A DNA stretch of 63,455 nucleotides, the filler included, from Reclinomonas americana ATCC 50394 (taxonomy: Eukaryota), in NCBI GenBank assembly GCA_048213135.1. It is 10 parts of 10 records of this genome, joined end to end, with 100 filler letters (N's around TTAATTAATTAA, not from the genome) between each part and the next. Parts side by side here need not be neighbours in the genome. Positions count along the whole stretch, not along the records: positions 47,003 to 51,732 come from AFZH01020260.1; positions 51,833 to 63,455 come from AFZH01020262.1; 8 more parts are not named here. One strand, given 5' to 3'. Below, one piece after another: positions 43,902 to 63,237 of this stretch. Position 1 is the first letter of the stretch, and every line of letters begins with the position of its first letter. The notes under the pieces are model-generated. The model did not search any database and was not told the DNA's origin. It worked only from the letters and a program-made list of their open reading frames with translations. The position numbers and the translations under genes were made by a program.

Positions 43902-46900
43902 ATGGCCAACTCACTGTCGGCACTGCTCATCACCAACGCGCGCGGAGGTCAGTCAGTCAGTCACAACACTCTCTCACACGCTCTTTACTCACAATTGTGT
44001 TATGCAACACACACAGACTTGCTGGTCTCGCGCTCATTCCGCGACGATGTCTCCACGTGCGTTGCTTACATAAGAGACAAAGAGAGAGAGTGTGTGTGTG
44101 TGTGTTTGCAAGTGCGTCATTGCGCTTCATCTTCGTTTTGTGCACGCGCGCGCACACTCTTTCTCTCTCATGCACTGTCACTGTCAGTGTGCGTGTGTGT
44201 GTTGTTGCATGTGCACTGATGCAGCGTGTGCCGCGTGTGCATTGTGTTTTGTGAGCTCATGATTGCGCAACTGATGCAATGCGCTCTCTGTGTGTGTGAG
44301 AGAGATGCACATGCACACGCGCACACGTGTCTGTCTCACTGTTGCACTCTCTTGCCCATTGTGTGTCTCTCGTGTGTGTGCGTGACATTGCGCACTTTTT
44401 CGTCTCTCTCACTCTCTTTGTTTGTTTGTTTGTTTAGGCGCACTGTTGCAGAGGCGTTCCGCACGCAGATTGTCGGCAACAAGCTTGTGGATCGGTGCCC
44501 TGTGCGCTCTGTGGGCACAGTGTCGTTCATCTTCATTCGGTGAGTGTGTGCGTGTGTGATGAGTCATGTGAGGATTCGGGGGAGAGGCGAGAGAGGGGAA
44601 GGCAAGAGAGAGGGAGAAAGGAGAGAGAGAGAGAGGCGTGAGAAGAATGCGGATTTGGTTGACACTTGGCAGTCGTATTTTGCATGTTCGTATCTCTCTT
44701 TGTGCTTTCTTTCTTCTTCTCCTTTTTCTCTGTCGTCCTTGCGCTCTGTGTTGTGGGCTTGCTTGTGTACTACAAGCCGTGATCCTCTCATTCTGCATGG
44801 CAACTGGACCGTTGTCGTGTTCGCCTCATGACACATGGCAGCCGGAAATGCATGTTCGTTTCGTCTTTCTCTTCTTCTCCTTCGTGTGGTGGCGGCGTGC
44901 TATCACTAGTGGATTTGCTTGTGTATTGACCACGTGATCCCCTTATTCTGCATGTCGGCTTGTGCCGTTGTCATGTTCGCCTCATGACACATGGCAGCCG
45001 GAAATGCACGTTCGTTTCGTCTTTCTCGCACTTGCTGTGGCGGTGTGCTCTCCTTTGTTGGCATGTTTGTGTATGCAAGCAGTGGTTCCCTCATTCTGCA
45101 TGGCGACTGTGCCGTTGTCATGTTCGCCTCATGACACATGGCAGCCGGAAATCTGTGTTCGTTTCTTCTTCTCTCTGGCATGCTTTCGCGGATTGCTCTT
45201 TGTTGATGGCCTGCCTGTGTGCATTGGCTGCGATCACTTCATTCTGCATGGCGGCTGTACCGTTGTCATATTTATATCATGACACATGGCAGCCGGAATT
45301 GTGTGTTCGTTTCGTCTTTCTCGCACTTGCGGTGGTGTGTTTCTCGCGTGTTGGCTTGCAAGCCGTGGTCCTCTCATTCTGCATGGCAACTGTGCCATTG
45401 TCATGTCTGTCTCATGACACATGGCGGTCGGAAATGCATGTTCGTTTCTCCCCCTTTGTGGTGTGTTGTCTCCTGGCGCTTCGTCACATAACACGTGACA
45501 GTCGGAAGCGCTCTCTTTCCATCTTTTTGCCGTTCAACCCTTTTTCAATCTCCACTGGGTGTTCGGTGTCGACACATGTCACCATCAATTCCTGTATTCT
45601 CGCAGCCGTTGCTTATAATTGTGCTCCACCTGCAGCCACGACAACGTGTACGTGGTGGGCGTGTCGCGCCAGAATGTCAACTGCGCCACAGTGCTAGAGA
45701 TTTTGCATCGGAGTTGCGTGCGGACGCTGCTCGTGTCGCCTCTCGCGCACGCTGCTGGGTTGCTCATCATCACTGTCTTCTGGATCGCAGCGGTCAAAAT
45801 CTTCCGCGCATACTTTGAGAACGTCTTCAACGAGCAGATCGCCAAGGACAACTTTATCCTGTTGTACGAGTTGCGTTTCACCTTACCTCCCCAAGCATCA
45901 CACCCCCGCACTCGCTCACTTGCCCCCATAGGCTGCTCGACGAGATTCTCGACTTTGGCTTCCCGCAAAACACCGAGGTCGACAACCTCAAGCAGTTCAT
46001 CTCGCAGGAGGGCCGCACCATCGACATCCGCACCGCGCAGCAGGTGACGATCGATGCCACTGGTGTCGTGTCGTGGCGCCCGCAGGGACTGGTCTACAAG
46101 AAGAACGAGGTGTACATTGATGTGTGGGAGGAGGTCAACGTGCTGATGTCCACCAAGGGTGAGTTTGGGGGGAAGGGGACAAGGGAGGAGGAAAAGGAGA
46201 AGGGGGAGCGAAGAATGTCTTTAGTTTGTTGCTTTGTGGGTTGGCTAGTGCGTGAGAGAGAGAGAGAAGGAGAGACTGAAGGAGAGGGAGAGAGACGAGA
46301 GAGAGAGAGAGAGAGGAGTGTATGTGTGTGTGAGAGAGAGGGAGGGGGAGGGAGAGGGAGAGAAATATCTTCGGTTTGTCGCTGTGTGTGTGTGAGGGAG
46401 AGACAAGGAGAGAGAAAAAGAGAAATGTCTTCAGAAGATGAGAGGATGAGGAGAAATATCTTTGATGTGTCGCGAATGAGGCTGCAGATGTGCATTGTGT
46501 GAGAGAGACACACAACAAAGACAGTGTGTGCGAGTATGAGAGATATTTTCAGCGGGCGAGGATGAAGAGAGCTGTATTTGACGTGAGATTGCTGGCGTGT
46601 GTGTAATAGACGCATGCAGTGAGAGACGAAGCGAGAGAATGAGCTTGTGATGGGTAGAGAGAGTTTGTCATTGCTGCGGAGGTGTTTGATTTGTCGTAAG
46701 TGTGTGTGTGTGTGTATTTGTGCGCGTGTTTGAGAGAGAGAGAGAGAGAATGAGAAAGTGCGCGAGATGCAGAGAGAAAAATGATTGAAAAGGATCTGGG
46801 GCGCAATCGACGAAGGACAGCGAGGTTCTTGTTTCTTGTTCTCGACTGCTCACGTGGCTTCTCGTGTGGCACAGGCGACCCGCTGACCGCCGATGTGACT

Positions 46901-46902: not shown

Positions 46903-47002
46903 NNNNNNNNNNNNNNNNNNNNNNNNNNNNNNNNNNNNNNNNNNNNTTAATTAATTAANNNNNNNNNNNNNNNNNNNNNNNNNNNNNNNNNNNNNNNNNN
47001 NN

Positions 47003-47213
47003 ACGCATGTGGTCCACGCCTTGCGATCTGGCTCGGGTCGAGCTCAGAAAGGCACGGTCGGCAATGCAGGCTGTACGGGAGATGCAGTGGAGAAGGAGTG
47101 GCGAGGAGCCTGATTCGCGCTGCTTGCCAGAGATGGTGCTGCGCTGTTTCATTGTGGAGGAGGCCGCGGTTGTGGTGCATCGATGCCTCACCGACCCTCG
47201 GCTGCACCTCTAA
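47003..47213 (+). CDS. WD40 array gene 1 (3' fragment, long tail type)
   Basis: ...RMWSTPCDLARVELRKARSAMQ...CLTDPRLHL TAA; 5' part in gap. Confidence 0.85.
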
Positions 47214-47471
47214 TGGGGGCGAAGGGCTCTTGTGCTCGACAATGCTCTGGAGCACTCTTTCGAACTGCTTGCCGTCACTTGCACCAGCTTGTGAATGTCG
47301 CAACCCGGCTGCCTTCCGCTGTCCAGCATCTACATGTACACTCCATTTTTTCTCGTTCAACTTCTCTGCCCAGTCCTTGTGACGTTCACTTTTCTTTCTT
47401 CCTCGCTTGTAAAGTGCTTATGGACAGTTGTGCCGAATGAAGAAGAAGTCTCTTATCGCCCTGTGTCTGCG

Positions 47472-47495
47472 GAAGTCTCGTGAACTTCAAAGTGC
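47472..47495 (+). promoter_or_regulatory. Conserved dyad GAAGT-N7-ACTTC upstream of WD40 genes
   Basis: Seen at 47472, 48928, 50381, 54051 and 55513, 92-129 bp before each ATG; partly deleted at ~52504. Confidence 0.4.
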
Positions 47496-47589
47496 GATCG
47501 TCCCAATGCAATTCACAGAAGATCACATAACATACACACGCACACACACTAACTCCTTCGCCTCCCTTTCCTGCCTCCTTCACTCTCCC

Positions 47590-48675
47590 ATGCCAATCGC
47601 TCCTCTCTTCCTCTGCACACGCGAGCCGGGGCTCCACACAGGTTGGGTGGAGAGTGTCGCCGTCACTCCCGATGATCAACACATCGTGAGTGGTAGTGAA
47701 GACGCTGTGCATGTGTGGTCCCTGGCGAGTGGTGAGGAAGTTCGGCGGCTGGAGGGCCACACTGGTGCAGTGTACTCTGTCGCCGTGACTCCCGACGGGC
47801 ATCACGTGGTTAGCGGCGGTGATGATAACACCGTGCGTGTGTGGTCTCTTGGGAGTGGGAGGGAAGTGCGACGACTGAAGGGACACACTGATGTGGTGTA
47901 CTCTGTTGCCGTCACTCCCGACGGTGAACACATAGTCAGTGGGAGTTATGACTGCACTGTGCGAGTGTGGTCACTTGCGAGTGGGAAGCAAGTGCGACGG
48001 TGGAAGGGACACACTGACTGGGTGCGGTCTGTCGCTGTCACTCCCGACGGTCAGCACGTTGTGAGTGGCAGTTCCGACAGTACAGTGCGTGTGTGGTCTC
48101 TGGCAAGTGGAAAACTTGTGCGACAACTGGAGGGACATGCTGACGAGGTAACCTCTGTCGCCATCACTCCCGACGGCCAGTACATTGTGGACGGAGGCGA
48201 AGACTGCACACTTTGCCTGTGGTCCCTGGTGACTGGCGAGGAGATGCGGCGGCTGGAGGGTCACACTGGAGGTGTGTATTGTGTCACCGTCACTCCCGAC
48301 GGTCTGCACATTGTGAGCGGGGCTGGCGACAACACGGTGCGAGTGTGGTCCGTGGCGAGTGGTGACGAGGTGCAGTGTTTGGAAGGACACACGAGCGGTG
48401 TGTTGTCTGTCGCCGTCACTCCCGATGGACAGCACATAGTGAGTGGGAGTGAGGACGACACAGTGCGCGTGTGGTCCACGCCTTGCGGTCTGGCGCGGAT
48501 CGAGCTCGACAAGGCGCGCTCGGCGATGCAAGCGGTGCAGGAGATGCAGCACCGCGAGGATGATGAGGAGCCTGATTCGCGCTGCTTGCCGGAGATTGTG
48601 TTGCGCTGCTTCGTTGTGGAGGAGGCCGCGGTTGTGGTGCATCGATGCCTCACCGACCCTCAGCTGCACCTCTGA
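47590..48675 (+). CDS. WD40 array gene 2, 361 aa, intronless, 7 repeats, long tail
   Basis: Start chosen by alignment with paralogues (MPIAPLFLC); GH...VAVTPDG.HIVSG..D.TVRVW x7. Confidence 0.9.
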   Translation: MPIAPLFLCTREPGLHTGWVESVAVTPDDQHIVSGSEDAVHVWSLASGEEVRRLEGHTGAVYSVAVTPDGHHVVSGGDDNTVRVWSLGSGREVRRLKGHTDVVYSVAVTPDGEHIVSGSYDCTVRVWSLASGKQVRRWKGHTDWVRSVAVTPDGQHVVSGSSDSTVRVWSLASGKLVRQLEGHADEVTSVAITPDGQYIVDGGEDCTLCLWSLVTGEEMRRLEGHTGGVYCVTVTPDGLHIVSGAGDNTVRVWSVASGDEVQCLEGHTSGVLSVAVTPDGQHIVSGSEDDTVRVWSTPCGLARIELDKARSAMQAVQEMQHREDDEEPDSRCLPEIVLRCFVVEEAAVVVHRCLTDPQLHL

Positions 48676-49056
48676 TTGGATAGCAAAGGGCTTGTGCGAT
48701 TGGCAAGGCTCTGGAGCACTCTTTCGAACTGCTTGCCGTCACTTGCACCAGCTTGTAAATGTCGCAACCCGGCCGCTTTCATACGCGTCGTCCAGCGTCT
48801 CCACTCCTTTTTTCGTTCAACTTCTCTGCCCAGTCCTCGTGACTTTCACTTTTTTTTCTTTCTTCCTCGCTTGTAAAGTACTTTTGTTCAGTTGTGCCGA
48901 ATGAAGAAGAAGTCTCTTGTCGCCCTGGAAGTCTTGCGAACTTCAAAGTGATCGGTCCCGACACGCATTTCTCACACGATCTCAGTCCGATCTCACACGC
49001 ACCCCCCATTCCCTCTCTCCCACCTCTTCCTTCTCCTCTCTCTCCTTTTCCCTCCC

Positions 49057-50133
49057 ATGTCATCCACGCCCCTCTTCCACCGCAAACACACCCTGCAGGG
49101 ACACTCTGCTGTCGTGTGGTCTGTCGCCGTCACCCCCGACGGTCGATTCGCAGTCAGTGGTGGCAACGACCAGACGGTGCGTGTGTGGTCGCTGGCAAGT
49201 GGTGAGGAGGTGCAGCGATTGGAGGGACACGATGAAGCGGTGCTGTTTATCGCCATCACTCCCGATGGGGAGCAGATTGTCACGGGCAGTGGAAGCAACG
49301 TTGTGCGCGTGTGGTCACTGGCGAGTGGCAAAGAGGTGCGACAGTTGGAGGGTCACACTCTGTCTGTGAGGGCGGTTGCCGTCACCGCCGATGGGCAGTA
49401 CGTGGTGAGTGGAGGCATCGACAGGACCATTCGCGTGTGGTCGCTGGCGAGTGGCAAACAGGTGCAGCGATTGGAGGGTCACACTGGATGGGTGTGGACG
49501 GTCGCTGCCACTCCAGACGGTGAGCACATTGTCAGTGGAGGTGATGACAACATGGTGAGAGTGTGGTCTCGCGTGAGCGGAGAACATGTGCGCCGAATGG
49601 AGGGGCACACGGATATTGTGCAGTGTGTCACCGTCACTCCCGACGGTCAGTGCGTGGTGAGTGCGGGCCGAGATGACACTGTGCGCGTGTGGTCACTGGC
49701 GAGCGGTGAGGAGGTGCGGCGGTTGGAGGGGCACACGCATTGGGTGAGGTCTGCCGTCGTCACTCCCGACGGGCGACACATTGTCAGTGGCGGATGGGAC
49801 AAGACTGTGCGAGTGTGGTCTGTGGCGAGTGGAGAGCAGGTGCAAGTGTTGGAGGAGCACACGGACGGTGTGTCGTCTGTCGCCATCACCACCGACGGGC
49901 AGCGTATTGTGAGCGGGACGTTTGACAGCGGTGTGTATGTGTGGTCCACGCCATGCGGTCTGGCTCGACATGAGCTTGACAAGGCATGCGCGTCGATGCA
50001 AGCGGTGCAGGAGATGCAGACGGGGGAGAATGAGGAACGGTGCTTGCCAGAGATGGTGCTGCGCTGTTTCATGGTCGAGGAGGCCGAGGTGATTGTGTAT
50101 CGGTGCCTCACCGACCCGCAGATGCACCTGTGA
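49057..50133 (+). CDS. WD40 array gene 3, 358 aa, short tail
   Basis: Single ORF with 7 WD40 repeats. Confidence 0.9.
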   Translation: MSSTPLFHRKHTLQGHSAVVWSVAVTPDGRFAVSGGNDQTVRVWSLASGEEVQRLEGHDEAVLFIAITPDGEQIVTGSGSNVVRVWSLASGKEVRQLEGHTLSVRAVAVTADGQYVVSGGIDRTIRVWSLASGKQVQRLEGHTGWVWTVAATPDGEHIVSGGDDNMVRVWSRVSGEHVRRMEGHTDIVQCVTVTPDGQCVVSAGRDDTVRVWSLASGEEVRRLEGHTHWVRSAVVTPDGRHIVSGGWDKTVRVWSVASGEQVQVLEEHTDGVSSVAITTDGQRIVSGTFDSGVYVWSTPCGLARHELDKACASMQAVQEMQTGENEERCLPEMVLRCFMVEEAEVIVYRCLTDPQMHL

Positions 50134-50474
50134 TGGGGGGCCGAGTAGGCGACGCCCTTAAGCTCGCTGGTGCTGCCTGTTCTTTGCAGGAGTCCACCTT
50201 CATATCGATCGCCTCCGTGGCACTGTTGGTTCTCCTCGTTTGTTGACCTTGCCCCTCACTCTCGTTCAACTTCTCTGCACAATCCTTGTGACTTTCGCTT
50301 TCCTTTCTTTCTCGCTTGTAAAGTACTTTTGTTCAGCTGTGCCGAATGAAGAAGAAGTCTCTTGTCGCTTTATGACTGCGGAAGTATTGCGAACTTCGAA
50401 GTGATCGTCGTCCCGGCACATTTCGCACACACAGTCCACCGACACACACGCACTCCCCCTCCCCCCTCTCCCGC

Positions 50475-51560
50475 ATGTCATTCGCTCCTCTCTTCTTATG
50501 TAAACTCGTGCTTGAAGGGCCCTCAGAGGTCTCATGTGTCGCCTGCGCTCCCAATTGTCAACACATTGTGAGTTCGAATGCTTACGAGACACTGCGTGTG
50601 TGGTCTCTGGCAAGTGGTGAGGAGGTGCGCCGGTTAGAGGGCCACACTGGTGTGGTGCTCACCGTCGCCGTGACTCCCGACGGGCAACATGTTTTGAGTG
50701 GTGGTGAAGACTGCACCGTGCGAGTGTGGTCCTTCGCGAGTGGCGAGGAAGTGCGACGGTTGGAGGGACACACTGCTGTGGTGTACTCGGTTGCCATCAC
50801 TCCCGACTGCGAGCACGTGATCAGTGGGAGTTATGACAAGACGGTGCGGGTGTGGTCACTTGCGAGTGGGAAGCAAGTGCGACGGCTGGAGGGACACACT
50901 GACTGGGTATGGTCCGTCGCTGTCACTCCTGATGGCCAGCACGTTGTGAGTGGGAGCTGGGACAGAACTGTCAGAGTGTGGTCTCTGGCGAGTGGGGAAG
51001 AAGTGCGACGACTGGAGGGACATGCTAAAAGGGTAGTCGCTGTCGCCGTCACTCCTGACGGGCTGCACGTGGTGAGTGGCAGCGAGGACAAGACAGTGCG
51101 AGTGTGGTCATTGGCAACTGGCGAGGAGGTACAAGTTTTGGAGGGCCACTCGGACGCAGTGTATTTTGTCGCCGTCACTCCCGACAGCCAGCACATTGTG
51201 AGCGGGGGTGGCGACAACACGGTGCGAGTGTGGTCCGCGGCGAGTGGCGAGGAGGTGCAGCGTTTGGAAGGACACACGAGCGGTGTGTTGACTGTCGCCG
51301 TCACTCCCGATGGACAGCACATAGTGAGTGGGAGTGAGGACGACACAGTGCGCGTGTGGTCCACGCCTTGCGGTCTGGCGCGGATCGAGCTCAACAAGGC
51401 GCGCTCGGCGATGCAAGCGGTGCAGGAGATGCAGCACCGGGAGGGTGACGAGGAGCCTGATTCGCGCTGCTTGCCGGAGATTGTGTTGCGCTGCTTCGTT
51501 GTGGAGGAGGCCGCGGTTGTGGTGCATCGATGCCTCACCGACCCTCAGCTGCACCTCTGA
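50475..51560 (+). CDS. WD40 array gene 4, 361 aa, long tail
   Basis: Single ORF with 7 WD40 repeats, the first degenerate. Confidence 0.9.
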   Translation: MSFAPLFLCKLVLEGPSEVSCVACAPNCQHIVSSNAYETLRVWSLASGEEVRRLEGHTGVVLTVAVTPDGQHVLSGGEDCTVRVWSFASGEEVRRLEGHTAVVYSVAITPDCEHVISGSYDKTVRVWSLASGKQVRRLEGHTDWVWSVAVTPDGQHVVSGSWDRTVRVWSLASGEEVRRLEGHAKRVVAVAVTPDGLHVVSGSEDKTVRVWSLATGEEVQVLEGHSDAVYFVAVTPDSQHIVSGGGDNTVRVWSAASGEEVQRLEGHTSGVLTVAVTPDGQHIVSGSEDDTVRVWSTPCGLARIELNKARSAMQAVQEMQHREGDEEPDSRCLPEIVLRCFVVEEAAVVVHRCLTDPQLHL

Positions 51561-51832
51561 CTGGATAGCCTACAAGTGGGCTTGTAGGCTCGGCAATGCT
51601 CTGGAGCGCTCTTTCGAACTGCTTGCCGTCACTTGCACCAGCTTGTCCATGTCGCAACCCGGCCGCTTTCATACGTGTCGTCCAGCGTCTCCACTCCGTG
51701 TTTCTCGTTCTCTGCACGATCCTTGTGGCTTTNNNNNNNNNNNNNNNNNNNNNNNNNNNNNNNNNNNNNNNNNNNNTTAATTAATTAANNNNNNNNNNNN
51801 NNNNNNNNNNNNNNNNNNNNNNNNNNNNNNNN

Positions 51833-52335
51833 CCATCGCCGTCACTCCCGACGGGCTGCACGTGGTGAGCGGCAGTGCCGACATGACAGTGCGTCTGTGG
51901 CTGTTGGCGAGTGGCGAGGAGGTGCGGCGGTTGGAGGGACACACCGGATGGGTGTATTGTGTCGCCGTCACTCCCGACGGCAAGCACATTGTGAGTGGCG
52001 GCGATGACGACACCGTGCGAGTGTGGTCACTCGCGACGGGCGACAAGGTGGACCGACTGGAGGGGCACAATGTGCTGGTGTCGTCTGTCGTCGTCAGTCC
52101 CGACGGCAAGCACATTGTGAGCGGCAGTCTTGACGAGACCATGCGAGTGTGGTCCACACCTGGAAGCATTGCTTGGAGTGAGCTCGACGGGGCGCGCTCG
52201 GCGATGCAAGCGGTGCAGCAGATGCAGATGGGGGAGGGTGAGGAACGGTGCTTGCCGGAGACGGTGCTGCGGTGCTTCATGGTGGAGGAGGCCGAGGTGA
52301 TTGTGAATCGGTGCCACTCTGTGCTGCACGTGTGA
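51833..52335 (+). CDS. WD40 array gene 5 (5' part in gap), short tail
   Basis: Last ~3 repeats plus a divergent tail ending CHSVLHV. Confidence 0.85.
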
Positions 52336-52592
52336 GGCGTTGGGGGTGAGAACGTGTCAAACGGCATGGTGCTTGTTTGGCAACTCGCCTCCTCGTCTTC
52401 CCGTTAGTTGGCCTCTTTTCATTCATTTCCTTATCCTCCTTTGTAATGTACTTTGTTTCCATCCGTCCCCGGTGCAAACAAAGAAGCCTCTTCTCGCCCT
52501 TCGGAAGTCTACAAAATGATCGTCGTCCCACCAGTTTGCACACAAACACACGCTCGCACGCACTCCCTCTTCCAGTTCTATCTCCTCTCTCC

Positions 52593-53681
52593 ATGTCAGT
52601 GGCTCCTCTCTTCCTCTGCAAACACGTGCTTGAAGGGAACGACACCGAGGTGTTATCCGTCGCCGTCGCTCCTGACGGTCAACACATCGTGAGTGGAGGT
52701 GGTGACACGCCAGTGTATATGTGGTCTCTGGCAAGTGGTGAGGAAGTGCGGCAGTTGGAAGGACATAGTGGTGTGGTGTTCTCCGTTGCCGTGACTCCCA
52801 ACGGGCAACACGTGGTGAGCGGCGGTGATGATGACACCGTGCGAGTGTGGTCCCTCGCGAGTGGCGAGCAAGTGCGACTGCTGGAGGGACACGCAGGTTG
52901 GGTGCAATCTGTTGCCATCACACTCGACGGTGAGCGCGTTGTGAGTGGGAGCTGGGACCGGACTGTGCGCTTGTGGTCTGTGACGCAAGGCGAGGAAACG
53001 GAACGGTTGGAGGGACACACTCAAGCAGTGCATTCCGTCGCCGTCACTCCCGACGGGCTTCATGTTGTCAGTGGGAGCTGGGACAAGACAGTACGCGTGT
53101 GGTCACTGGCAAGTGGTGAAGAAGTTCGACGGCTGAAGGGACACACTGAGGGAGTAACCTCAGTCGCCATCACTCCCGACGGGCTGCGCGTGGTGAGCAG
53201 CAGTGTTGATTGCACTGTGCGTGTGTGGTTGTTGGCAACTGGCGAGGAGGTGTGCCGATTAGAAGGACACACTGGAGGGGTGAACTGTGTCACCATCACT
53301 CCCGATGGCGAGCACATTGTGAGCGGGGGCAGTGACTGCACCGTGCGAGTGTGGTCCCTGGCGAGTGGTGAGGAAGTGCAGCGTTTGGAAGGACACACTG
53401 AATCGGTGTGGTCAATCGCCGTCACCTCCGATGGACAGCACATTATGAGCGGGAGTGGGGACTGCACCGTGCGCGTGTGGTCCACGCCTTGCGGTCTGGC
53501 TCGAGTCGAGCTCACCGGGGCACGCTCCGCGGTGCTAGCGGTGCGGGAGATGCAGCACCGGGAGGGTGACGAGGAGCCTGATTCACGCTGCTTGCCGGAG
53601 ATGGTGCTGCGGTGTTTCATTGTGGAGGAGGCCGCGGTTGTGGTGCACCGATGCCTCGCCGACCCGCGGATGCACCTCTAA
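52593..53681 (+). CDS. WD40 array gene 6, 362 aa, long tail
   Basis: MSVAPLFLCKHVLEG start; 7 repeats; TAA. Confidence 0.9.
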   Translation: MSVAPLFLCKHVLEGNDTEVLSVAVAPDGQHIVSGGGDTPVYMWSLASGEEVRQLEGHSGVVFSVAVTPNGQHVVSGGDDDTVRVWSLASGEQVRLLEGHAGWVQSVAITLDGERVVSGSWDRTVRLWSVTQGEETERLEGHTQAVHSVAVTPDGLHVVSGSWDKTVRVWSLASGEEVRRLKGHTEGVTSVAITPDGLRVVSSSVDCTVRVWLLATGEEVCRLEGHTGGVNCVTITPDGEHIVSGGSDCTVRVWSLASGEEVQRLEGHTESVWSIAVTSDGQHIMSGSGDCTVRVWSTPCGLARVELTGARSAVLAVREMQHREGDEEPDSRCLPEMVLRCFIVEEAAVVVHRCLADPRMHL

Positions 53682-54178
53682 TTGGGAGTGAGCACGAGAG
53701 AAAAGGGCATGCATATGTGCAGTCGACATGGAGGCAGTGCTCTGGAGCAATCTCCCTGGCCGCGCATGCTTGCTTCTAGCAGCCTGCGCCGTCATCATTT
53801 GCACCAGGATTGCAACTTGGCATCCTTCGTCCAACACCTCCACTCCGTGTTTTGCCTTGTCCCTCACTGTCTCTGGTGCCAGCGTTCCCTCTCACTCAAC
53901 TTTCCGCAAAATCAATCTCTCGAGCTCTTTGACTTGCATTGCTCCTTCCATCCTCGTTTGCAGTGTACTTTTGTTTCTGGTACTCCATCCCAAAGTCGTG
54001 TTGATCGAGAGGCAAGGAGTGTTTTTCTTGCTTTGCACGCCGTGTCTGTGGAAGTCTTGCGAACTTCGAAGTGATCATCGTCCCGGCACATTGAGCACTC
54101 ATAACATTGTTACGCGCACACACTTCTTCCCCTTTCCCCTTCTCTCTCGCTCTCCTCTCCCCCTTCTCTCTCCCTCCC

Positions 54179-55255
54179 ATGTCAGTCGCCCCCCTCTTCC
54201 TCTGCACACGCGTGCTTGAGGATCACACAGGTTGGGTGCAGTGTGTTGCCGTCACCCGCGACGGTCAGCACATTGTCAGTGGAGACTATGTCGGGATGGT
54301 GCGTGTGTGGTCTCTGGCGAGTGGTGAGGAGGTGCGCCGGTTGGAGGCTCACACTGGCATGGTGCTCGACATCACTGTAACTGCCGACGGGCAGCACATT
54401 GTCAGTGGCGGAGATGATAACACCGTGCGAGTGTGGTCCCTCACGAGTGGCGAGCAAGTGCGACTGCTGGAGGGACACGACGGTGAAGTGTTCGCTGTCG
54501 CTGTCACTCCCGATGGTCAGCACGTTGTCAGTGGCAGTTGGGACCAGACAGTGCGTGTGTGGTCGCTGGCCAGTGGCGACGAAGAGCAACGGTTGGAGGG
54601 ACACACGGAGCAGGTGTATTCCGTCGCCGTCACACCCAACGGTAAGCACGTTGTGAGTGGGAGCTGGGATGGAACAGTGCGCGTGTGGCTGTTGGCGAGC
54701 GGTGAGGAGGTACGACGGCTGGAGGGACACACTGATGGGGTGTATTGTGTGGCCGTCACTCCCGATGGTCAGCACATTGTGAGCGGTAGTGCGGATTTTA
54801 CTTTGCGGGTGTCGGTGCTGGCGACTGGCGAAGAGGTGCGGCGGTTGGAGGGACACAGTGGATGCGTGCTCTCGGTCGCCGTCACTCCCGACGGTGAGCG
54901 CCTAGTGAGCGGAGGTGGTGACAACACAGTGTGCGTGTGGTCTCTCGCCACGGGTGATGCGGTGGACCGGCTGGTGGGACATGCGGATGCGGTGGCGTCT
55001 GTCGTCATCACCTCCGACGGGCAACACATTGTGAGCGGCAGTCTTGACGAGACCGTGCGTGTGTGGTCCATGCCTTATTGCTTCGCTCGGCAAGAGCTCG
55101 ACAAGGCGCGCTCGGCGATGCAAGCGGTGCAGGAGATGCAGACGGGGGAGAGTGAGGAACGGTGCTTGCCGGAGATGGTGCTGCGCTGCTTCATGGTGGA
55201 GGAGGCCGAGGTGCTTGTACATCGATGTCTCACCGACCCGCGGATGCACCTCTGA
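54179..55255 (+). CDS. WD40 array gene 7, 358 aa, short tail
   Basis: MSVAPLFLCTRVLED start; 7 repeats. Confidence 0.9.
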   Translation: MSVAPLFLCTRVLEDHTGWVQCVAVTRDGQHIVSGDYVGMVRVWSLASGEEVRRLEAHTGMVLDITVTADGQHIVSGGDDNTVRVWSLTSGEQVRLLEGHDGEVFAVAVTPDGQHVVSGSWDQTVRVWSLASGDEEQRLEGHTEQVYSVAVTPNGKHVVSGSWDGTVRVWLLASGEEVRRLEGHTDGVYCVAVTPDGQHIVSGSADFTLRVSVLATGEEVRRLEGHSGCVLSVAVTPDGERLVSGGGDNTVCVWSLATGDAVDRLVGHADAVASVVITSDGQHIVSGSLDETVRVWSMPYCFARQELDKARSAMQAVQEMQTGESEERCLPEMVLRCFMVEEAEVLVHRCLTDPRMHL

Positions 55256-55604
55256 TTGGATAGCAAAGGGCTTGTGGGCTCGACAATGCTCTGGAGCACT
55301 CTTTCGAACTGCTTGCCGTCACTTGCACCAGCTTGTCCATGCCGCAACCCGGCTGCCTTCCGCTGTCCAGCATCTGTACTCAATTTTTCTCGTTAAACTT
55401 CTCTGCACAGTCCTTGCTTGTGACTTTCACCTTTATCTTTCTTCGTTCCTCGCTTGTAAAGTACATTTGTTCAGTTGTGCCGAATGAAGAAGAAGTCTCT
55501 TGTCGCCCCGCAGAAGTCTTGCGAACTTCAAAGTGATCGTCGTCCCGGCACATTTCTCACACCGACGTCGACACACGCACGCACTCCCCCTCCCCCCCTC
55601 CCCC

Positions 55605-56693
55605 ATGTCTTTCGCTCCTTTCTTCCACTGTGCACACGTGCTGGAAGGGCACGCTGACGAAGTGCGTGCTGTCGCCATCACTCCAGATGGCCACCACATC
55701 ATAACTGGGAGCAGTGACTCTTCAGTACGCATGTGGTCGCTGGCGAGTGGTAAGGAGATGCGACGAATGGAGGGCCACTCGAGGTGGGTGCTCACCGTCG
55801 CCGTGACTCCCGATGGGAAACATGTTTTGAGTGGCGGTTTTGACGCAACCGTGCGTGTGTGGTCGCTGGCGAGTGGCGAGCAAGTGCGACTGCTGGAGGG
55901 ACCCATAGGTTTGGTGTGCTCTATCGCCGTCACTCCCGATGGCCAGCACGTGATCAGTGGGAGTTATGACAAGACGGTGCGAATGTTGTCACTTGCGAGT
56001 GGGAAGAAACTGCGAAAGTTTGAGGGGCACACTGACTGGGTGTGGACGGTCGCTGTCACTCCTGACGGTCGATATGTTGTCAGTGGTAGTTATGACAAGA
56101 CGGTGCGTGTGTGGTCTCTGGCAAGTGGAAAACTTGTGCGACGGCTGGAGGGACATGCAAAGGCGGTAAAGTCTGTCGCCATCACTCCCGATGGGCTGCG
56201 CGTGGTGAGCGGCAGCGAAGACATGTCTGTGCGAGTGTGGTTGTTGGCAACTGGTGAGGAGGTGCGGCGGTTTGAGGAACACACTGGATGGGTGAACTGT
56301 GTCGCTATCACACCCGATGGCGAGCACGTTGTGAGCCGGGGTGAGGACCACGCCGTGCGCGTGTGGTCTTTGACGAGTGGCGAGGAGGTGCAGTGTTTAA
56401 AAGGGCACAATAGAACGGTGACCTCTGTTGCCGTCAGCCCGGATGGACAGCACATTGTGAGCGGGAGTGAGGACGGCACCGCGCGTGTGTGGTCCACAGC
56501 TTGCGGTCTGGCGCGGTTCGAGCTCGACAAGGCACGGTCGGCAATGCAAGCGGTACGGGAGATGCAGCACCGGGAGGGTGACGAGGAAGTGGATTCGCGT
56601 TGCTTGCCGGAGATGGTGCTGCGCTGTTTCATTGTGGAGGAGGCCGCTGTGGTGGTGCACCGGTGCCTCACTGACCCTCGACTGCACCTCTGA
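55605..56693 (+). CDS. WD40 array gene 8, 362 aa, long tail
   Basis: MSFAPFFHCAHVLEG start; 7 repeats. Confidence 0.9.
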   Translation: MSFAPFFHCAHVLEGHADEVRAVAITPDGHHIITGSSDSSVRMWSLASGKEMRRMEGHSRWVLTVAVTPDGKHVLSGGFDATVRVWSLASGEQVRLLEGPIGLVCSIAVTPDGQHVISGSYDKTVRMLSLASGKKLRKFEGHTDWVWTVAVTPDGRYVVSGSYDKTVRVWSLASGKLVRRLEGHAKAVKSVAITPDGLRVVSGSEDMSVRVWLLATGEEVRRFEEHTGWVNCVAITPDGEHVVSRGEDHAVRVWSLTSGEEVQCLKGHNRTVTSVAVSPDGQHIVSGSEDGTARVWSTACGLARFELDKARSAMQAVREMQHREGDEEVDSRCLPEMVLRCFIVEEAAVVVHRCLTDPRLHL

Positions 56694-56802
56694 TGCGAGG
56701 CGAAGTGCACATGGGCAGGGCGTGCGTCGTTGACGGCGAATGAACCTCACGCCCTTCATTCCTACGACAGTTGTTGTTCTGTCGCCTTCTGCTAGCCCCT
56801 CC

Positions 56803-59800
56803 TCACAACTCCTCCTTCCTCCCCTGCTGCTTGTTCTTCTTCGTCTTGTCCTTCTTCTTCTTGCTGCTCGAGACACGTCTATCGGACTCATCGAAAGCGC
56901 TGCTCTCGGTGTTGTTGTCCACAACGACTTCGGCCGGCGATGCCGGTGGCACCTCCTCCTCCACCACGTCCTCTTGCGGTAACACACCGGCATCGGTTCG
57001 CGGCCGCGGGATCTTTGCACGAGCGGCGTGAGCGCGCAGGAACTTGACGATGGACTTGATGCGCCGCTTGCCCTCGTACGTGTGCGGATAGGACTTTTTG
57101 TCGGCCGGATAAAACGCCAACATCGGCAGCACGTCCCAGTTGAGGTTGACAGTGGGCGGAACCTCGTTTTGCGACACGTCCATCTGTGCGATCACCAGGT
57201 GATCGATGTGTGCCATTTCCTGCGCCAGCTGCTGGTACAGGTCGCGGAACTTGGCGCACCGCGGATGCTCTGACAGGAATCGGTGAGCGCCCATCTTGTG
57301 ATGCAGTTCACGCATTGTTGTCACGCCCGCTCACCCGCCGCATGAAACATCAACAGCACATCCTTGCTGCTGTCCTGCACAATGTCGTGGAATGTATCGC
57401 CCACCACAATCTCCACATGTCCGTCGAACGGAGTGATTGGCACAGGCGCACTACGCAGCTTCACGCGCATTCGACCAGCGGCAAAGTCCTCCACAAACGA
57501 GCGAAAGGAGTCCGCCGTCAGCGGGGTGTCACCCTTTGGAAACACGAAATGCACGCCGTTCTGACAAAGGATCACACACATTTTGTCAACACGCGCCAGA
57601 GTGTAGAGGGAATAAATATAAAGAGTGCACACCCACCAGTGGATCATCGATGACGATGTTCGGCGTGCTACCGTCCATGCCAAATCGCTGCTGATGCTCG
57701 CCAAACTGGTTGTTGTCAAGGTACACAAAAGCGAGCTTCTTCGAGAACTGCCGCGCCACTGGCGACAGTTGCTCCACCAGCAACTTGACCGACGTCTCCT
57801 TTTCTGCAAGCATGCAGCCACGTGTGACTCGTACATCACTCTCTCGACCTCTCTCACTCTCTCAACGCGCCCTCACACCTTTGCCATCGACAAACATGTA
57901 GAGCATGGGCGCCTCACGACGCGCATAATCGGCGGCATTGGCGGCCGTCAGTTCGCCAAACGGCGGTGTGATCGCCATGTACACGAAGCGCATGAGGTCG
58001 TCCTTGTTGGTGGTGTTGCCGCCGTACACCAGCGGAGCACCGAGCTCAAAGTCGCGGAATGCCAACACTTCGGGCACCTTTTCCACATCGAAACTGGGGC
58101 GACAGCGAAAGTCAGGCACAAACAAACAAAAAAGAAAGCGAAGCATCACCGCAACTGGTGTGCCACATCACTGTCGGACACTGCGCCGAAGCGGTGCATG
58201 TCGCGGAACTCGGAGGCCACCACATCGAACGTGGCTCTGTCATCGTCGGGGCCGAAGAAGCCGATCAGAGAGACGCCCGGTTGTGCGAGGAACTCCTTGG
58301 CTTGTTTGATGGTCTCGAGCTCGGCGATGGGTGATTCGGATTGTCTGCGGGGAGGGGAAAGGGGAAATTAGGGAAAGGGGGGGGAATAGGGAAGGGGGAG
58401 ATAAGGAAAAGGAGGAGGGAGAAAATAAGTGAAGTGAGAAAGGGAGGGAGGGGTAGGAGAGAAGGGAGAGAGAGAGAGGGAGGGGAGGGAGAGAAGAGAG
58501 AGAAGGGAGAGGAGATGGAAGCAAAACAAGATGTAAGCCAAAACACAGAGAGGAAAAGAGAAAGACACAGAGTAAGTAAAAAACAGTGAAGTTGGCGGGT
58601 TGAGAATGGAGGAATGTAGTGGGGGAACGGATGAGGGGAACGAAAAATATAGGGAAAGGAGAGGTGGCAAGAGGCAGAAGAAGACATGAAGGAGAGGAAT
58701 TGAAAAAACGAGAGCGGGATAGAGATTTTCGAGGTAGAGAGAGAAACGGAGAGAGCGAGAGAGGGAAACAGAGTGTGGCTCAGTGCCTGGAAATAAACAT
58801 CGCGGCAACAATGAGATGGTGGGCAAATGAGAGAATGCGTGACGAGCAGTGAAAGAAAGTAATAGTGAGACAAAACATTCAGCAGCAATGCGGCGGATAT
58901 CTTGATGCAGATACGGACCGGAGAGAGAGAGAGACACGGGTTGAGGGAAAGAGGGGATATAGAGAGAGAGAGAGAGAGAGACAAGAGCCGGCGGTCGGTG
59001 TGGAACAAAGACAGATCTAATTGAGAGTACGAGAAACGCAACTCGTCCACAAACGCAATCAGTGCCTCGGCTGTGCGCGCTCCATTGTAGTCATACATGC
59101 GTCGGTTGCCGCGGAACAATTTCACGGTGGGGAATCCTTGCAGACGGAGTGCGTGTGCTGCATGCAGCAGTGAGACTCCAGCGCACACCCTCACACGCTT
59201 ACACACGGTCGACGCAACAAATCTGCTCGTACTTGCTGCCGTCGATCTTGGCCACCATCACTTTGCGATCGCGCTGCTCGGGTGCGCTAAAGTGCTGCGC
59301 CACCTTTTCGTACTCAGGCGCCATTTGCTTGGAGTATGTGCACCCTGTCGAGCTCGCGGCATGAGGGAGAAAAAAAGGAGAGCTGACGCGCACGCAAGCG
59401 AGGATGCTGACGCAACATGGGGCGTACACTTGGAGGAGAAGCAGGTCGTTCTCCTGCATCGCCAGCGCAATGTCCTTGGGTCGGAGGCGGCGGACGGTGG
59501 AGTCGTTGAAGCCGGTCTGTGGAAGGCGTGACAAGGGGGAAGAGGGAAGGGTGAGAGGGGAAGGGGGAAGGGGGAGAGGGGAAGGGAAGAGAGAAGGAGA
59601 AATAGAATAAGCAGGAGGAGGAGGAGGAGGAGGAGAAGAAGAAGAAGAAGAGGGAGGGAAACAATGAGGCAGAGGAGGACAAAGAGGGAGGAAATACGAG
59701 AAACGATGATGACAATGAAGATGACATCAATCTCAACGATGACAGAGGACAAGGCGCTGATAGAGGAGATGAAGAAGGAGAAGAACAAGAACAAGAAGAA

Positions 59801-59992
59801 GACGAAGAAACAGAAGGAGAAGGCAGAGAGAAAGGAAAGAGAAGGACAAGAGGAAGAGGAGGAGGAGGGGAGACGAAGAAGGGAGAGGGAACCACGGAGA
59901 AGGGGACAACAAGGCAGAGGAGAACGAAGAGGACACAAGATGACGATGGCATCAATCTGGATGCAAACAAAGATGGCAGAGAACAAGGTGCG

Positions 59993-60023
<31 letters not shown>

Positions 60024-60935
60024 AGGAGGAGGAGGAGGAGAAGAAGAAGGAGAAGAACAAGAAGAAGAAAGAAGAAAGAAGAAAACGAAGAAGAACAAGC
60101 AGAAGAAGAAGAAGGAGTAGGAGGAGGAGGCAGAGAACAATGCAGAGAGAAAGAGAAGGACAAGAGGAAGAGGAGGAAGGGGAGACGAAGAAGGGAGAGG
60201 GAACCACGGAGAAGGGGTACAACGAGGCAGAGGAGAACGAAGAGGAGGAAACGGATGCTGTGACGATGACATCAATCTGGATGCAAACAAAGATGGCAGA
60301 GAACAAGATGCGGAGAGAGAGGAGGAGGAGGAGGAGAAGAAGGAGAAGAAGACGAGAAGGAGAAGGAGGCAGAGAACAAGTCAGAGAGAAAGGAAGAGGA
60401 GGACAAGAGGAAGCGGAGGGGAAGAAGAAGAGGAAGAAGGGAGAGGGAAACAGTGAGGCACAACGAGGCAGGAGAACACAGGAGGAAACATAAAAAACGA
60501 TGATGATGATGACATCAATCTCGATGCAATCACAGATGACAGAGTACAAGGTGCGAAGAGAGACAGAGAGTGTGTGAGAGAGAGTAGGGGGGAGGAAGGG
60601 AGAGAGAGAGAGCAAAAAGAGAGACAACGCGTCACATGATAACAGACTTGCACACACACACTCACCTCCGGCAACAACACATCCTCCTCCTCCTCTTCCT
60701 CCTCTCCCTTCTCCCCGCCCTTCTCATCTCCGTCTTTCACACTGCGCGGTTGCACCAACTGCAAATCACCGTCGGCATCGGCCTCCATCGGCGCCGTCAT
60801 GAATGCCGCACGCATGGCTTCCACTTCTTCATCGGTGGGCTCATAGCTCTCCTCGCGAGAGTTGCGGCGAGCTGACACTGACAGTGATGCAATGAGAATG
60901 AAGAGGAGCAAGAGGAATGCGCGTCGCATTTGCAT
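56803..60935 (-). CDS. Protein disulfide isomerase family protein (a-b-b'-a'), signal peptide, KEEL end, non-canonical active sites; about 9 exons
   Basis: MQMRRAFLLLLFILIASLSVSA signal; VYAPWCTYSKQMAPEYEK, VAKIDG, GFPTVKLF, YNGARTAEALIAF, VEIVVGDTFHDIVQDSSKDVLLMFHA, VIAQMDVSQNE, ...RKEEL TGA. Confidence 0.9.
59680..60560. repeat. Four degenerate ~220-320-bp purine-rich units in PDI intron 1
   Basis: GATGRCATCAATCT...GATGRCAGAGxACAAG core near 59720, 59945, 60266 and 60508. Confidence 0.75.
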
Positions 60936-61076
60936 GCAAAAAAAACGAAAATGAAATGCACCGGTACCGCCGATCGACTGGAGCCTACAGTGGTGTGTTG
61001 CAGCACAAAGGTGCCTTGCGCTAAGGGGTACGCGTGTGGAAGGACACGATGTACAGTGCGAAATCAGGAGCCGTGT

Positions 61077-61244
61077 TCATGTATTGGTCCGGTTTCCGAT
61101 CGCGACAATTTCATGCTTTGCTTCCACTTCTTCATCGGTGGGCTCATCGCTTTCCTCGCGAGAGTTGCGGCGGGCCTCCGACACTGACAGTGATGCAAGG
61201 AGAATGATGAGGAGGAGGAGCAAGAGCAATGCTGTGCGTTGCAT
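61077..61244 (-). pseudogene. Partial tandem duplicate of PDI exon 1 (55-aa signal-peptide ORF)
   Basis: 60817-61116 and 61120-61412 are homologous; ORF MQRTALLLLLLLIILLASLSVSEARRNSREESDEPTDEEVEAKHEIVAIGNRTNT*. Confidence 0.7.
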
Positions 61245-63198: not shown

Positions 63199-63237
63199 GT
63201 TGAGTGGATAGGAAATGGGGTGGCTTCCAGCTTTGCT

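What the first reader, a model, noticed from the sequence alone, without database searches (positions are those of the whole stretch)
47003..56693. Array of at least 8 intronless HET-E-like WD40 propellers with hypervariable surface positions: candidate receptor repertoire
Seen: each complete gene has 7 repeats of about 42 aa (LEGHxxxVxSVAVTPDGxHIVSGxxDxTVRVWSLASGEEVRR) that are highly similar at DNA level. Variation concentrates after GH (TGAVY, TDVVY, TDWVR, ADEVT, TLSVR, THWVR, AKRVV, SRWVL, TEQVY) and around SGxxDx (SYDC, GIDR, GWDK, SEDK, GFDA). The genes have no introns although neighbours are intron-dense. Established: fungal NLR-like HET-E/HET-D WD repeats evolve concertedly with positive selection at equivalent top-face positions. 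Inference: an expanded, diversifying binding repertoire (non-self recognition or substrate capture) that lacks the NACHT and effector domains, possibly of retro- or lateral origin.
Basis: partly seen in the sequence, partly recalled or inferred. Interest (0 to 1): 0.78.

Follow-up and report, generated by a model that had tools for sequence, protein, structure and literature searches.

The report
Tandem WD40 propeller genes, orphan tail
A protist genome carries a row of at least eight intron-free genes, each for a seven-bladed WD40 propeller with its own binding-face residues and a shared, previously undescribed two-helix tail; it looks like an old family of adaptors, not a fast-evolving immune-type repertoire.

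Summary
47004-56693 (+) carries six complete genes (358-362 aa) and two genes cut by contig ends. Each has 7 WD40 repeats of 42 aa (Pfam, AlphaFold2 pLDDT >90) and a conserved ~65-aa C-terminal tail. Only five of 42 repeat positions are hypervariable (7, 8, 10, 26, 28). They lie in the d-a and b-c loops, on the top face, and four are the codons positively selected in HET-E/HET-D.

The HET-E-like reading is only partly supported. Repeats average 69% DNA identity, silent divergence between copies is large (dS about 0.5-0.9), and concerted evolution shows only as one local conversion tract. My per-site test found 0 of 42 positions with dN>dS. A pooled estimate for the hot codons is 1.8-2.75, but it is saturated and the codons were chosen after the fact. 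Framework and tail are under purifying selection (omega about 0.2).

The tail has no Pfam or PDB relative. A profile search of 1.84 billion proteins found three true relatives, one an EST product of the jakobid Reclinomonas americana.

Best reading: an old, lineage-specific family of stand-alone adaptors with paralogue-specific binding faces and a common docking tail. Ligands and tail partner are unknown.

The parts
47004..47213 (+). G1, partial gene: end of repeat 7 plus complete tail and stop; the 5' part is lost at the contig start (47003)
   Evidence: Translation; aligned with the other tails
47590..48675 (+). G2, complete gene, 361 aa: 7 WD40 repeats plus long-form tail. Its last third is 94-100% identical to G4 (a conversion tract).
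49057..50133 (+). G3, complete gene, 358 aa: 7 WD40 repeats plus short-form tail (4 aa fewer)
   Evidence: (PF00400, 7 stretches, E 2e-76)
50475..51560 (+). G4, complete gene, 361 aa; the copy that was modelled. The propeller spans residues 8-296 and the tail helices 298-322 and 332-355.
51363..51557 (+). The tail module of G4 (65 aa), as an example of the family-specific C-terminal two-helix module
   Evidence: Alignment A1, 28 invariant columns among 8 copies; no Pfam or PDB match; 3 true relatives in 1.84 billion proteins
51835..52335 (+). G5, partial gene: part of repeat 5, repeats 6-7 and a short-form tail with a divergent end; the 5' part is lost in the assembly gap
52593..53681 (+). G6, complete gene, 362 aa
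54179..55255 (+). G7, complete gene, 358 aa, short-form tail
55605..56693 (+). G8, complete gene, 362 aa; last gene of the array
51733..51832 (.). Assembly linker (N44 + TTAATTAATTAA + N44) inside the array; an unknown amount of the array is missing here. A second linker lies at 46903-47002.
48676..48810 (+). Conserved 3'-flank block, including a stretch of about 60 nt that is nearly invariant. It is also present at 47214-47340, 51561-51695 and 55256-55385, and absent after G3, G5, G6 and G8.
   Evidence: 79-92% identity; no covariation
50245..50415 (+). Conserved upstream block (-230 to -60 from the ATG), 82-88% identical among G2, G3, G4 and G8. This is more than the first 195 nt of their coding sequences (64-72%).
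56803..59420 (-). Convergent neighbour: an intron-rich thioredoxin/PDI-like gene ending in KEEL. It marks the right end of the array.
   Evidence: (PF00085, E 1.7e-4, below Pfam's cut-off)

Best explanation
This is an old, tandemly duplicated, lineage-specific family of small stand-alone proteins in a protist, probably a jakobid or a relative. Each gene encodes a canonical seven-bladed WD40 propeller closed by its own N-terminal strand, followed by a family-specific C-terminal module of two helices.

Shown: the scaffold and the tail are held by purifying selection. The five top-face positions of every blade are free to differ, so each paralogue presents its own binding face, rich in Trp, Tyr, Asp and Glu.

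Inferred: the proteins work as adaptors with a variable head and a constant handle. The propeller top binds a paralogue-specific ligand, most likely a peptide or protein. The shared tail docks all paralogues to one common partner or site, as the F-box or SOCS box does for WD40 substrate receptors.

The family grew by gene duplication and divergence (birth-and-death) with occasional local gene conversion. It did not grow by HET-E-type concerted evolution.
For: Architecture:
- Pfam WD40 x7.
- AF2 models with pLDDT >90 over residues about 11-296, 28 strands, first strand at residues 8-14.
- Foldseek TM 0.98, rmsd 0.9 A to PkwA 5yzv; 2ymu, WRAP-T, WDR5 and RACK1 follow.
- H, S/T, D and W at the tetrad positions in 36 of 42 units.

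Complete genes:
- ATG in 6 of 6 complete genes, directly after a CT-rich tract with no AG.
- In-frame stops 28-81 codons upstream.

Selection:
- Omega is 0.24 for the framework and 0.18-0.25 for the tail, both rejecting omega=1 (2dlnL 176-192 and 34-48).
- 25 of 42 repeat positions are significantly negative.

Variable head:
- Entropy peaks only at positions 7, 8, 10, 26 and 28, all in the d-a or b-c loop region.
- Hot-site identity between same-index blades of different genes is 0.88 of 5. It is 0.53 of 5 for other pairs, and 0 of 2000 shuffles reach the observed value. Faces therefore diverged gradually and are gene-specific.

Old family:
- Genes are 59-78% aa identical.
- Fourfold-site difference is 0.37-0.46.

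Constant handle:
- 28 of 65 tail columns are invariant in 8 copies.
- The motif L-R-C-F-x-x-E is kept in all three outside relatives.
- P0122 (381 aa) and P0124 (394 aa) keep the same propeller-plus-tail layout at only 24-25% identity.

Expression of the family:
- P0121 is the product of a Reclinomonas americana EST. It is 62-77% identical to the window's genes and ends at the same C-terminus.
Against: No ligand, partner, localisation or expression data exist for these genes. One search for sequencing runs listed none.

The tail is modelled at only moderate to low confidence (pLDDT 55-75 with alignment A5, below 50 for 328-361 with A2). No F-box, SOCS-box or other docking domain is detectable in it. 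The 'handle' role is therefore inferred only from its conservation.

Pooled ML omega at the hot codons is above 1 (1.78 with 2dlnL 2.97; 2.75 with 2dlnL 6.93). Unit pairs with low framework pS (0.2-0.3, n=37) already show hot-site pN of 0.58. Active diversification is therefore not excluded.

Some non-coding flanks are more alike than the coding sequence. Simple divergence does not explain that.
Confidence: 0.55

Rival explanations
1. A HET-E-like diversifying recognition repertoire. The array is kept under positive, diversifying selection at the top-face positions, with exchange of repeats between copies, and serves non-self or pathogen recognition. The signalling part would be supplied in trans.
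For: - The hypervariable positions match those in HET-E/D.
- Pooled omega at the hot codons is 1.8-2.75.
- First plus second codon-position divergence at hot codons is about twice the fourfold-site divergence of the framework after JC correction (the correction is my arithmetic).
- G2 repeat 4 and G7 repeat 3 are 92% identical in the framework yet differ at 5 of 5 hot residues.
- The genes form a tandem array, and the hot positions are rich in Trp and Tyr.
- Some repeats match best at another index.
Against: - 0 of 42 positions are significant for beta>alpha; beta/alpha at the hot positions is 0.76-2.17 with p 0.24-0.79.
- The NG86 ratio is 0.97.
- The hot codons were chosen because they vary, and their tree length of 14-20 substitutions per codon is saturated.
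- Repeats are not homogenised: mean nt identity is 69%, against up to 100% in HNWD genes (PMC1805685, passages).
- The repeat number is fixed at 7.
- There is no NACHT, HET or other effector domain.
- The duplicates are old.
Confidence: 0.17
2. The ORFs are terminal exons of larger spliced genes, or exons of one long gene, and not stand-alone genes.
For: The genome is intron-rich. CT-rich tracts precede each ORF. Conserved blocks lie in the spacers.
Against: - Each ORF starts with a conserved ATG and has in-frame stops 28-81 codons upstream.
- No AG lies between the CT tract and the ATG.
- The N-terminal residues form the closing strand of blade 7, so the propeller is complete.
- Each ORF ends in a conserved stop.
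- The EST-derived relative ends at the same place.
- Two distant relatives are complete ORFs of 381 and 394 aa.
Confidence: 0.05
3. The propeller part was recently acquired from bacteria, or arose by retroposition. That would explain both the lack of introns and the bacterial-type consensus repeats.
For: - No introns in 6 of 6 complete genes, beside an intron-rich neighbour.
- The best database hits are mostly metagenomic or bacterial WD40 proteins at up to 59% identity.
- The closest solved structures are bacterial: 2ymu from Nostoc and 5yzv from Thermomonospora.
Against: - GC is 0.59-0.62 and GC3 0.65-0.71, like the PDI exons (GC3 0.65-0.81).
- Fungal proteins are among the hits too.
- Consensus-like WD40 repeats resemble each other whatever their descent.
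- The tail has no bacterial relative. The one genome-contig hit lies in a wrong frame of a recombinase gene.
- Relatives with degenerate propellers keep the same tail, which points to an older family.
- This rival concerns origin only and is compatible with the best explanation.
Confidence: 0.15

Closest known systems
Podospora anserina HNWD/NWD genes (HET-E, HET-D, HET-R): NACHT-WD40 NLR-like allorecognition proteins (Paoletti, Saupe & Clave 2007, PMC1805685; passages read)
   Same: Both have 42-aa WD40 repeats with a constant scaffold. Variation sits at the same four codons flanking the conserved V and D (their 7, 9, 25, 27; 8, 10, 26, 28 here), on the propeller's interaction face. Both are multigene families.
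   Different: - This array has no HET or NACHT domain.
- The repeat number is fixed at 7 and forms one closed propeller. HNWD genes vary in repeat number, with at least 10 needed for incompatibility activity.
- Repeats are 69% nt identical on average, against up to 100% in HNWD genes.
- There is no family-wide concerted evolution.
- Positive selection was not significant here.
- This family has a conserved C-terminal tail that HNWD proteins lack.
Highly or moderately repetitive WD40 proteins (Hu et al. 2017, PMC5587647; abstract and sections 9 and 11 read), e.g. the Nostoc punctiforme protein 2ymu and the Thermomonospora PkwA WD40 domain 5yzv
   Same: Repeats are consensus-like (SPDG-type a-b loop, DHSW tetrad residues) with high internal identity: 0.54-0.71 per gene here, which is their 'moderately repetitive' band, with G4 at the border of 'highly repetitive'. 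Diversity is concentrated at the predicted hotspots, which that paper already notes. Sequence identity to 2ymu and 5yzv is 40-44%, and TM is 0.98 to 5yzv.
   Different: Most such proteins are bacterial or fungal, often multi-propeller and fused to other domains. These are single-propeller eukaryotic genes in a tandem array with an orphan tail. My internal-identity figure was not computed by their exact method.
WD40 substrate receptors of cullin-RING ligases (F-box/WD40 such as FBXW7; WD40/SOCS-box such as WSB1). Named from my own knowledge as a functional analogy.
   Same: The logic is the same: a family of propellers with different top faces, each joined to one short, conserved helical module that docks them to a shared machine.
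   Different: No F-box or SOCS box is detectable in the tail (Pfam at E up to 10; PDB profile search). The module is C-terminal. No ligase link is shown. This is an analogy and not membership.

Membership tests
WD40 repeat beta-propeller (Pfam PF00400) | Seven WD40 repeats folding into a closed seven-bladed propeller | tested here: met
   7 PF00400 stretches in each of G3 and G4, E 2e-76 and 1.5e-81. AF2 gives 28 strands with pLDDT >90. Foldseek TM 0.98, rmsd 0.9 A to 5yzv.
WD40 repeat beta-propeller (Pfam PF00400) | DHSW tetrad residues (His after G, Ser/Thr, Asp, Trp). The positions are assigned partly from recall and partly from PMC3419727 passages. | tested here: met
   36 of 42 units carry H5, S/T23, D27 and W33.
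Fungal HNWD / HET-E, HET-D NLR-like proteins | N-terminal HET effector domain and NACHT NTPase domain on the same polypeptide | tested here: not met
   The ORFs are complete at 358-362 aa, with only WD40-type Pfam families in the two genes scanned. In-frame stops lie upstream. No longer protein carries the tail among 1.84 billion representatives.
Fungal HNWD / HET-E, HET-D NLR-like proteins | Repeats homogenised by concerted evolution (up to 100% identity within and between genes) | tested here: not met
   Unit pairs (n=861): mean nt identity 0.69, aa 0.62. Framework pS 0.45-0.53. Only one clear conversion tract, the G2/G4 3' third.
Fungal HNWD / HET-E, HET-D NLR-like proteins | Strong positive selection at the four codons flanking the conserved V and D | tested here: inconclusive
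   Per-site test: 0 of 42 significant; beta/alpha 1.13, 0.76, 1.50 and 2.17 at those four codons. Pooled ML omega 1.78-2.75, saturated and measured on codons chosen after the fact. NG86 ratio 0.97.
Fungal HNWD / HET-E, HET-D NLR-like proteins | Variable residues on the top (interaction) face of the propeller | tested here: met
   Positions 7 and 8 fall at the end of the d-a loop, 10 is the second residue of strand a, and 26 and 28 are in the b-c turn. The register equals R1-2, R1 and D-1. No coordinates were available, so exposure was not computed.
Moderately/Highly repetitive WD40 proteins (Hu et al. 2017) | Internal repeat identity above 0.4 (MR) or above 0.7 (HR) | tested here: met
   Per-gene mean aa identity between repeats is 0.54-0.71, which is MR. 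It was computed on a 33-aa core and not by the paper's own procedure.
F-box/WD40 or SOCS-box/WD40 substrate receptors | A recognisable F-box or SOCS box next to the propeller | tested here: not met
   A Pfam scan of 8 tails at E up to 10 gave only chance-level hits, the best being DUF4761 at E 0.019. The PDB profile search gave one chance hit at E 0.48.
Gcp1-3, Pex7-like WD40 proteins co-occurring with the mitochondrial T2SS in jakobids, heteroloboseans and malawimonads (PMC8134430, passages read) | Orthology to Gcp1, Gcp2 or Gcp3 (Pex7-related propellers, single genes) | not tested
   No Gcp sequence was in hand, and the paper's Supplementary Data 1 was not opened. No Pex7 entry is among the 60 best PDB matches listed. 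I consider membership unlikely, but it is not excluded.

The most novel reading that the evidence does not exclude
The array is a 'split' recognition system of a deep-branching protist. The propeller heads are kept different by diversifying selection; the pooled omega above 1 would then be real and merely blurred by saturation. The orphan two-helix tail plugs every head into one common effector supplied in trans. That would be an NLR-free counterpart of the HET-E design, in a lineage where no innate recognition system is known.
Probability: 0.12. Interest if true: 0.7.

Novelty: new variant of a known kind. Interest (0 to 1): 0.38.

Why it matters
It adds a eukaryotic, NLR-independent example of the 'frozen scaffold, free hotspots' WD40 design. 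It also defines a new small protein family, propeller plus two-helix tail, that so far appears only in this genome, in a jakobid EST and in two unnamed assemblies. If the tail proves to be a docking module, the family gives a ready set of natural propellers with different faces on one handle, in a poorly studied branch of eukaryotes. As it stands it is a tidy gene-family description and not a new mechanism.

Tried and rejected
- Sequencing runs for 52340-56800: none was listed, so expression and splicing of these copies could not be read.
- Whole genome: none is held for this window, so copies could not be counted genome-wide.
- Organism identification failed. The PDI-exon protein search gave no hit. 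The Atlas gave only 'Eukaryota' thioredoxin clusters. Rfam found 0 families and ARAGORN 0 tRNAs. Earlier notes of this scan held nothing for this genome or sequence.
- Tail searches that found nothing:
  - word-based protein search of the tail;
  - Pfam;
  - Atlas;
  - PDB profile search;
  - metagenome and viral contig scans;
  - Genome contigs, whose single hit is a wrong-frame match inside a recombinase gene.
- P0123 is a low-complexity repeat protein and was discarded as spurious.
- Homodimer prediction of G4 x2 returned 'no answer'. It is no evidence either way.
- F-box, SOCS-box, zinc-site and PTS1 readings of the tail were dropped after inspecting the sequences. The Cys/His and C-terminal residues are not kept in P0121, P0122 or P0124.
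- RNA-structure reading of the conserved 3' block: 0 of 33 predicted pairs show compensatory change.
- The Chou-Fasman-type helix guess was superseded by the AF2 models.
- Literature: two full-text searches found no paper on such an array in protists (terms: jakobid / WD40 / nuclear genome; WD40 / tandemly duplicated / diversifying selection / protist). Papers outside the library were not searched.
Full report
What the window is. The 63,455 bases are ten contigs joined by nine 100-base linkers (N44, TTAATTAATTAA, N44). The finding lies on the last two contigs (47003-51732 and 51833-63455), so 47003 is a contig start and the array crosses an assembly gap. No whole genome is held.

The genes. 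On the + strand there are six complete ORFs: G2 47590-48675, G3 49057-50133, G4 50475-51560, G6 52593-53681, G7 54179-55255 and G8 55605-56693 (358-362 aa). Two genes are truncated by contig ends: G1 47004-47213 and G5 51835-52335. They are real paralogues and not assembly duplicates, because pairs are 69-84% identical in DNA and 59-78% in protein.

Pfam finds seven WD40 stretches in each of the two genes scanned, and Tandem Repeats Finder sees the 126-base period at 66-75% matches. The two AlphaFold2 models of G4 give 28 strands with pLDDT above 90 over residues about 11-296, beginning with an N-terminal strand at residues 8-14. The model superposes on the bacterial PkwA propeller 5yzv at TM 0.98 and rmsd 0.9 A; 2ymu, designed WRAP-T propellers, LIS1, WDR5 and RACK1 follow.

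Are they whole genes? All six complete copies begin with ATG directly after a C/T-rich tract that holds no AG. Each has an in-frame stop 28-81 codons upstream. The first dozen residues supply the strand that closes blade 7, so nothing is missing at the N-terminus. Every repeat is an intact 42-aa unit, so there is no room for an intron.

The neighbour on the other strand is a thioredoxin/PDI-like gene ending in KEEL. It lies in at least seven ORF pieces, and one GT-AG intron of about 73 nt splitting a Trp codon can be read directly. 'Intronless among intron-rich genes' is therefore correct, judged on one neighbour.

The variable positions. I cut 44 repeat units and used 42; the first repeats of G2 and G4 were dropped for 1-aa indels. 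In my numbering (R1 L2 E3 G4 H5 ... V9 ... D27 ... W33 ... R42) entropy exceeds 2.8 bits only at positions 7, 8, 10, 26 and 28, each with 12-14 residue types. Positions 6, 11, 19 and 1 are moderately variable and most others nearly fixed.

On the model's DSSP string, 7 and 8 end the d-a loop, 10 is the second residue of strand a, and 26 and 28 sit in the b-c turn. Wu et al. (PMC3419727, passages) define the top face as the d-a and b-c loops. They name R1-2, R1 and D-1 (G-beta blade residues 16, 18, 34) as the usual contact residues, and by register these are my 8, 10 and 26. Paoletti et al. (PMC1805685, passages) found codons 7, 9, 25 and 27 of HET-D/E repeats under positive selection, flanking the conserved codons 8 and 26; these are my 8, 10, 26 and 28.

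If ten of the 42 positions count as top face (4-10 and 26-28), the chance that the five most variable all fall there is 252/850,668, about 3e-4 (my arithmetic). No coordinates were available, so solvent exposure was not computed. The hot positions are rich in Gly (14%), Asp (10%), Trp (10%), Glu (9%) and Tyr (6%).

How the family evolves. Here the HET-E analogy weakens.
- Unit pairs (n=861) average 69% DNA and 62% protein identity.
- With the variable codons masked, DNA identity is 0.77 for same-index blades of different genes and 0.73-0.74 otherwise (all 44 units).
- Framework pS is 0.45 (same index) to 0.53 (all pairs), with dN/dS about 0.2.
- Fourfold sites differ at 0.37-0.46.

The copies are therefore old and held by purifying selection, not homogenised. 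The one clear conversion tract is the last third of G2 and G4, at 94-100% identity.

At the five hot codons the tests give the following.
- NG86 gives pN 0.575 against pS 0.582.
- An IQ-TREE GY model on the 33 hot codons gives omega 1.78 (F1X4, 2dlnL 2.97 against omega=1) or 2.75 (F3X4, 2dlnL 6.93). The tree length of 14-20 substitutions per codon means saturation, and the codons were chosen because they vary.
- The same models give omega 0.24 for the framework and 0.18-0.25 for the tail.
- My FEL-type per-site test on the 42 units found 0 of 42 positions with beta>alpha at p<0.05. Beta/alpha at the hot positions was 1.46, 1.13, 0.76, 1.50 and 2.17 (p 0.24-0.79), and 25 positions were significantly negative.

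The 37 unit pairs with framework pS 0.2-0.3 already show hot-site pN of 0.58, although picking low-pS pairs biases this. Hot-codon first and second positions are about twice as diverged as fourfold sites after JC correction. The fair summary is that the hot sites change at least as fast as silent sites, and selection for change is possible but not shown.

Hot residues keep a weak phylogenetic signal: 0.88 of 5 are identical between same-index blades, against 0.53 for other pairs, and 0 of 2000 shuffles reach that value. This fits gradual divergence of gene-specific faces.

By Hu et al.'s scale (PMC5587647, sections 9 and 11) the per-gene internal identities of 0.54-0.71 are 'moderately repetitive'. 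That paper already notes that hotspots stay diverse in repetitive WD40s.

The tail. Among eight copies 28 columns are invariant and omega is about 0.2. Both AF2 runs predict two long helices (298-322 and 332-355 in G4) joined by an acidic loop. pLDDT is 55-75 with the family alignment A5 and below 50 for 328-361 with A2.

The tail has no Pfam match (best E 0.019) and no PDB match by sequence or profile. It has no word-based database hit and no Atlas hit. It has no relative in the viral or metagenome contig collections, and its one bacterial-genome hit is a wrong-frame artefact.

A full HMMER pass over 1.84 billion representatives gave four hits, one of them spurious.
- P0121 is a 116-aa product of a Reclinomonas americana EST.
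  - It is 62-77% identical to the window's genes, which is as close as they are to each other (65-95% over the same region).
  - It ends at the same C-terminus.
  - It groups with G6 at moderate support, 85/90.
- P0122 (381 aa) and P0124 (394 aa) come from unnamed assemblies. They are 24-25% identical over their whole length, have degenerate propellers and keep the tail core L-R-C-F-x-x-E.

The layout of propeller plus tail is thus a small, rare family whose members are all short; no fused form turned up. The EST shows that the family is expressed in a jakobid. It also suggests, as inference only, that the window comes from that species or a relative.

Mechanism. Three things are shown: a complete, stable propeller; a conserved scaffold and tail; and paralogue-specific top faces. 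From these I infer that each protein binds its own ligand on the top face, as most WD40 proteins do, and that the common tail ties all of them to one partner or place. The closest functional analogy is the F-box or SOCS-box WD40 substrate receptors, but no such box is detectable, so this is analogy and not membership.

Composition gives no sign of recent foreign origin: GC3 is 0.65-0.71 against 0.65-0.81 in the PDI exons. The mostly bacterial best hits can be explained by consensus-like repeats. The origin of the intron-free state stays open.

Unexplained. Some spacers are better conserved than the coding sequence next to them. The upstream blocks of G2, G3, G4 and G8 are 82-88% identical, against 64-72% for their first 195 coding bases. 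The 3' blocks after G1, G2, G4 and G7 are 79-92% identical and include about 60 nearly invariant bases. The cause may be regulatory constraint or spacer-limited conversion; I could not tell which.

Verdict. This is a new small family and a new variant of a known design, of moderate interest. The ligands, the tail partner and the question of ongoing diversification need transcript, population and binding data.

Noticed in passing
window 1-30294 (contigs 1-7793, 7894-15619, 15720-22778, 22879-30294): Four paralogous units of about 7.5 kb, 83-87% identical over nearly their whole length. Each has internal repeats at about 1-kb spacing (65-75% identity). Several frames are open and none of the 33 ORFs scanned from the first two units has a Pfam match. 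This is a second, unrelated tandem family on the same scaffold.
   Followed up: partly
window 47214-47340, 48676-48810, 51561-51695, 55256-55385 (+): A conserved block directly after the stop codons of G1, G2, G4 and G7 (79-92% identical), with about 60 nearly invariant bases. It is better conserved than the adjacent tail-coding sequence in some pairs (G1/G7: 92% against 77%). There is no covariation support for an RNA structure (0 of 33 pairs).
   Followed up: partly
window 47360-47530, 48827-48997, 50245-50415, 55375-55545 (+): The upstream blocks (-230 to -60 from the ATG) of G2, G3, G4 and G8 are 82-88% identical, while the first 195 coding bases are only 64-72% identical. The blocks contain a GTAAAGT...TTTTGTTCAG stretch and an upstream ATG. 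They may be a promoter or 5' UTR, or a tract of spacer-limited conversion.
   Followed up: partly
window 48443-48904, 51328-51780, 55044-55487 (+): A long ORF in another frame (147-153 aa) runs from the last WD repeat across the stop codon and through the 3' spacer in three copies. It is probably a by-product of GC-rich, conserved sequence, and was not tested.
   Followed up: no
window 56803-59420 (-): A thioredoxin/PDI-like gene with a KEEL end and many short introns. One active-site region reads W-C-T-Y-S once the 73-nt GT-AG intron is removed, which would be a CxxS-type site and not CGHC.
   Followed up: partly
window 31122-31847 (+) and 45819-46499 (+): Exon-like ORFs with Pfam matches to TMEM260-like protein O-mannosyltransferase (E 4e-27) and to the start of an adaptor-complex medium subunit (E 2.6e-7, just below Pfam's cut-off). 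The second lies on the contig just upstream of the WD array.
   Followed up: no
array order, window 47004-56693: There are two tail forms, long (with the PDSR-type insert: G1, G2, G4, G6, G8) and short (G3, G5, G7). From G3 to G8 they alternate short-long along the array, which hints at duplication of a two-gene unit. The spacer similarities do not follow that pattern.
   Followed up: partly
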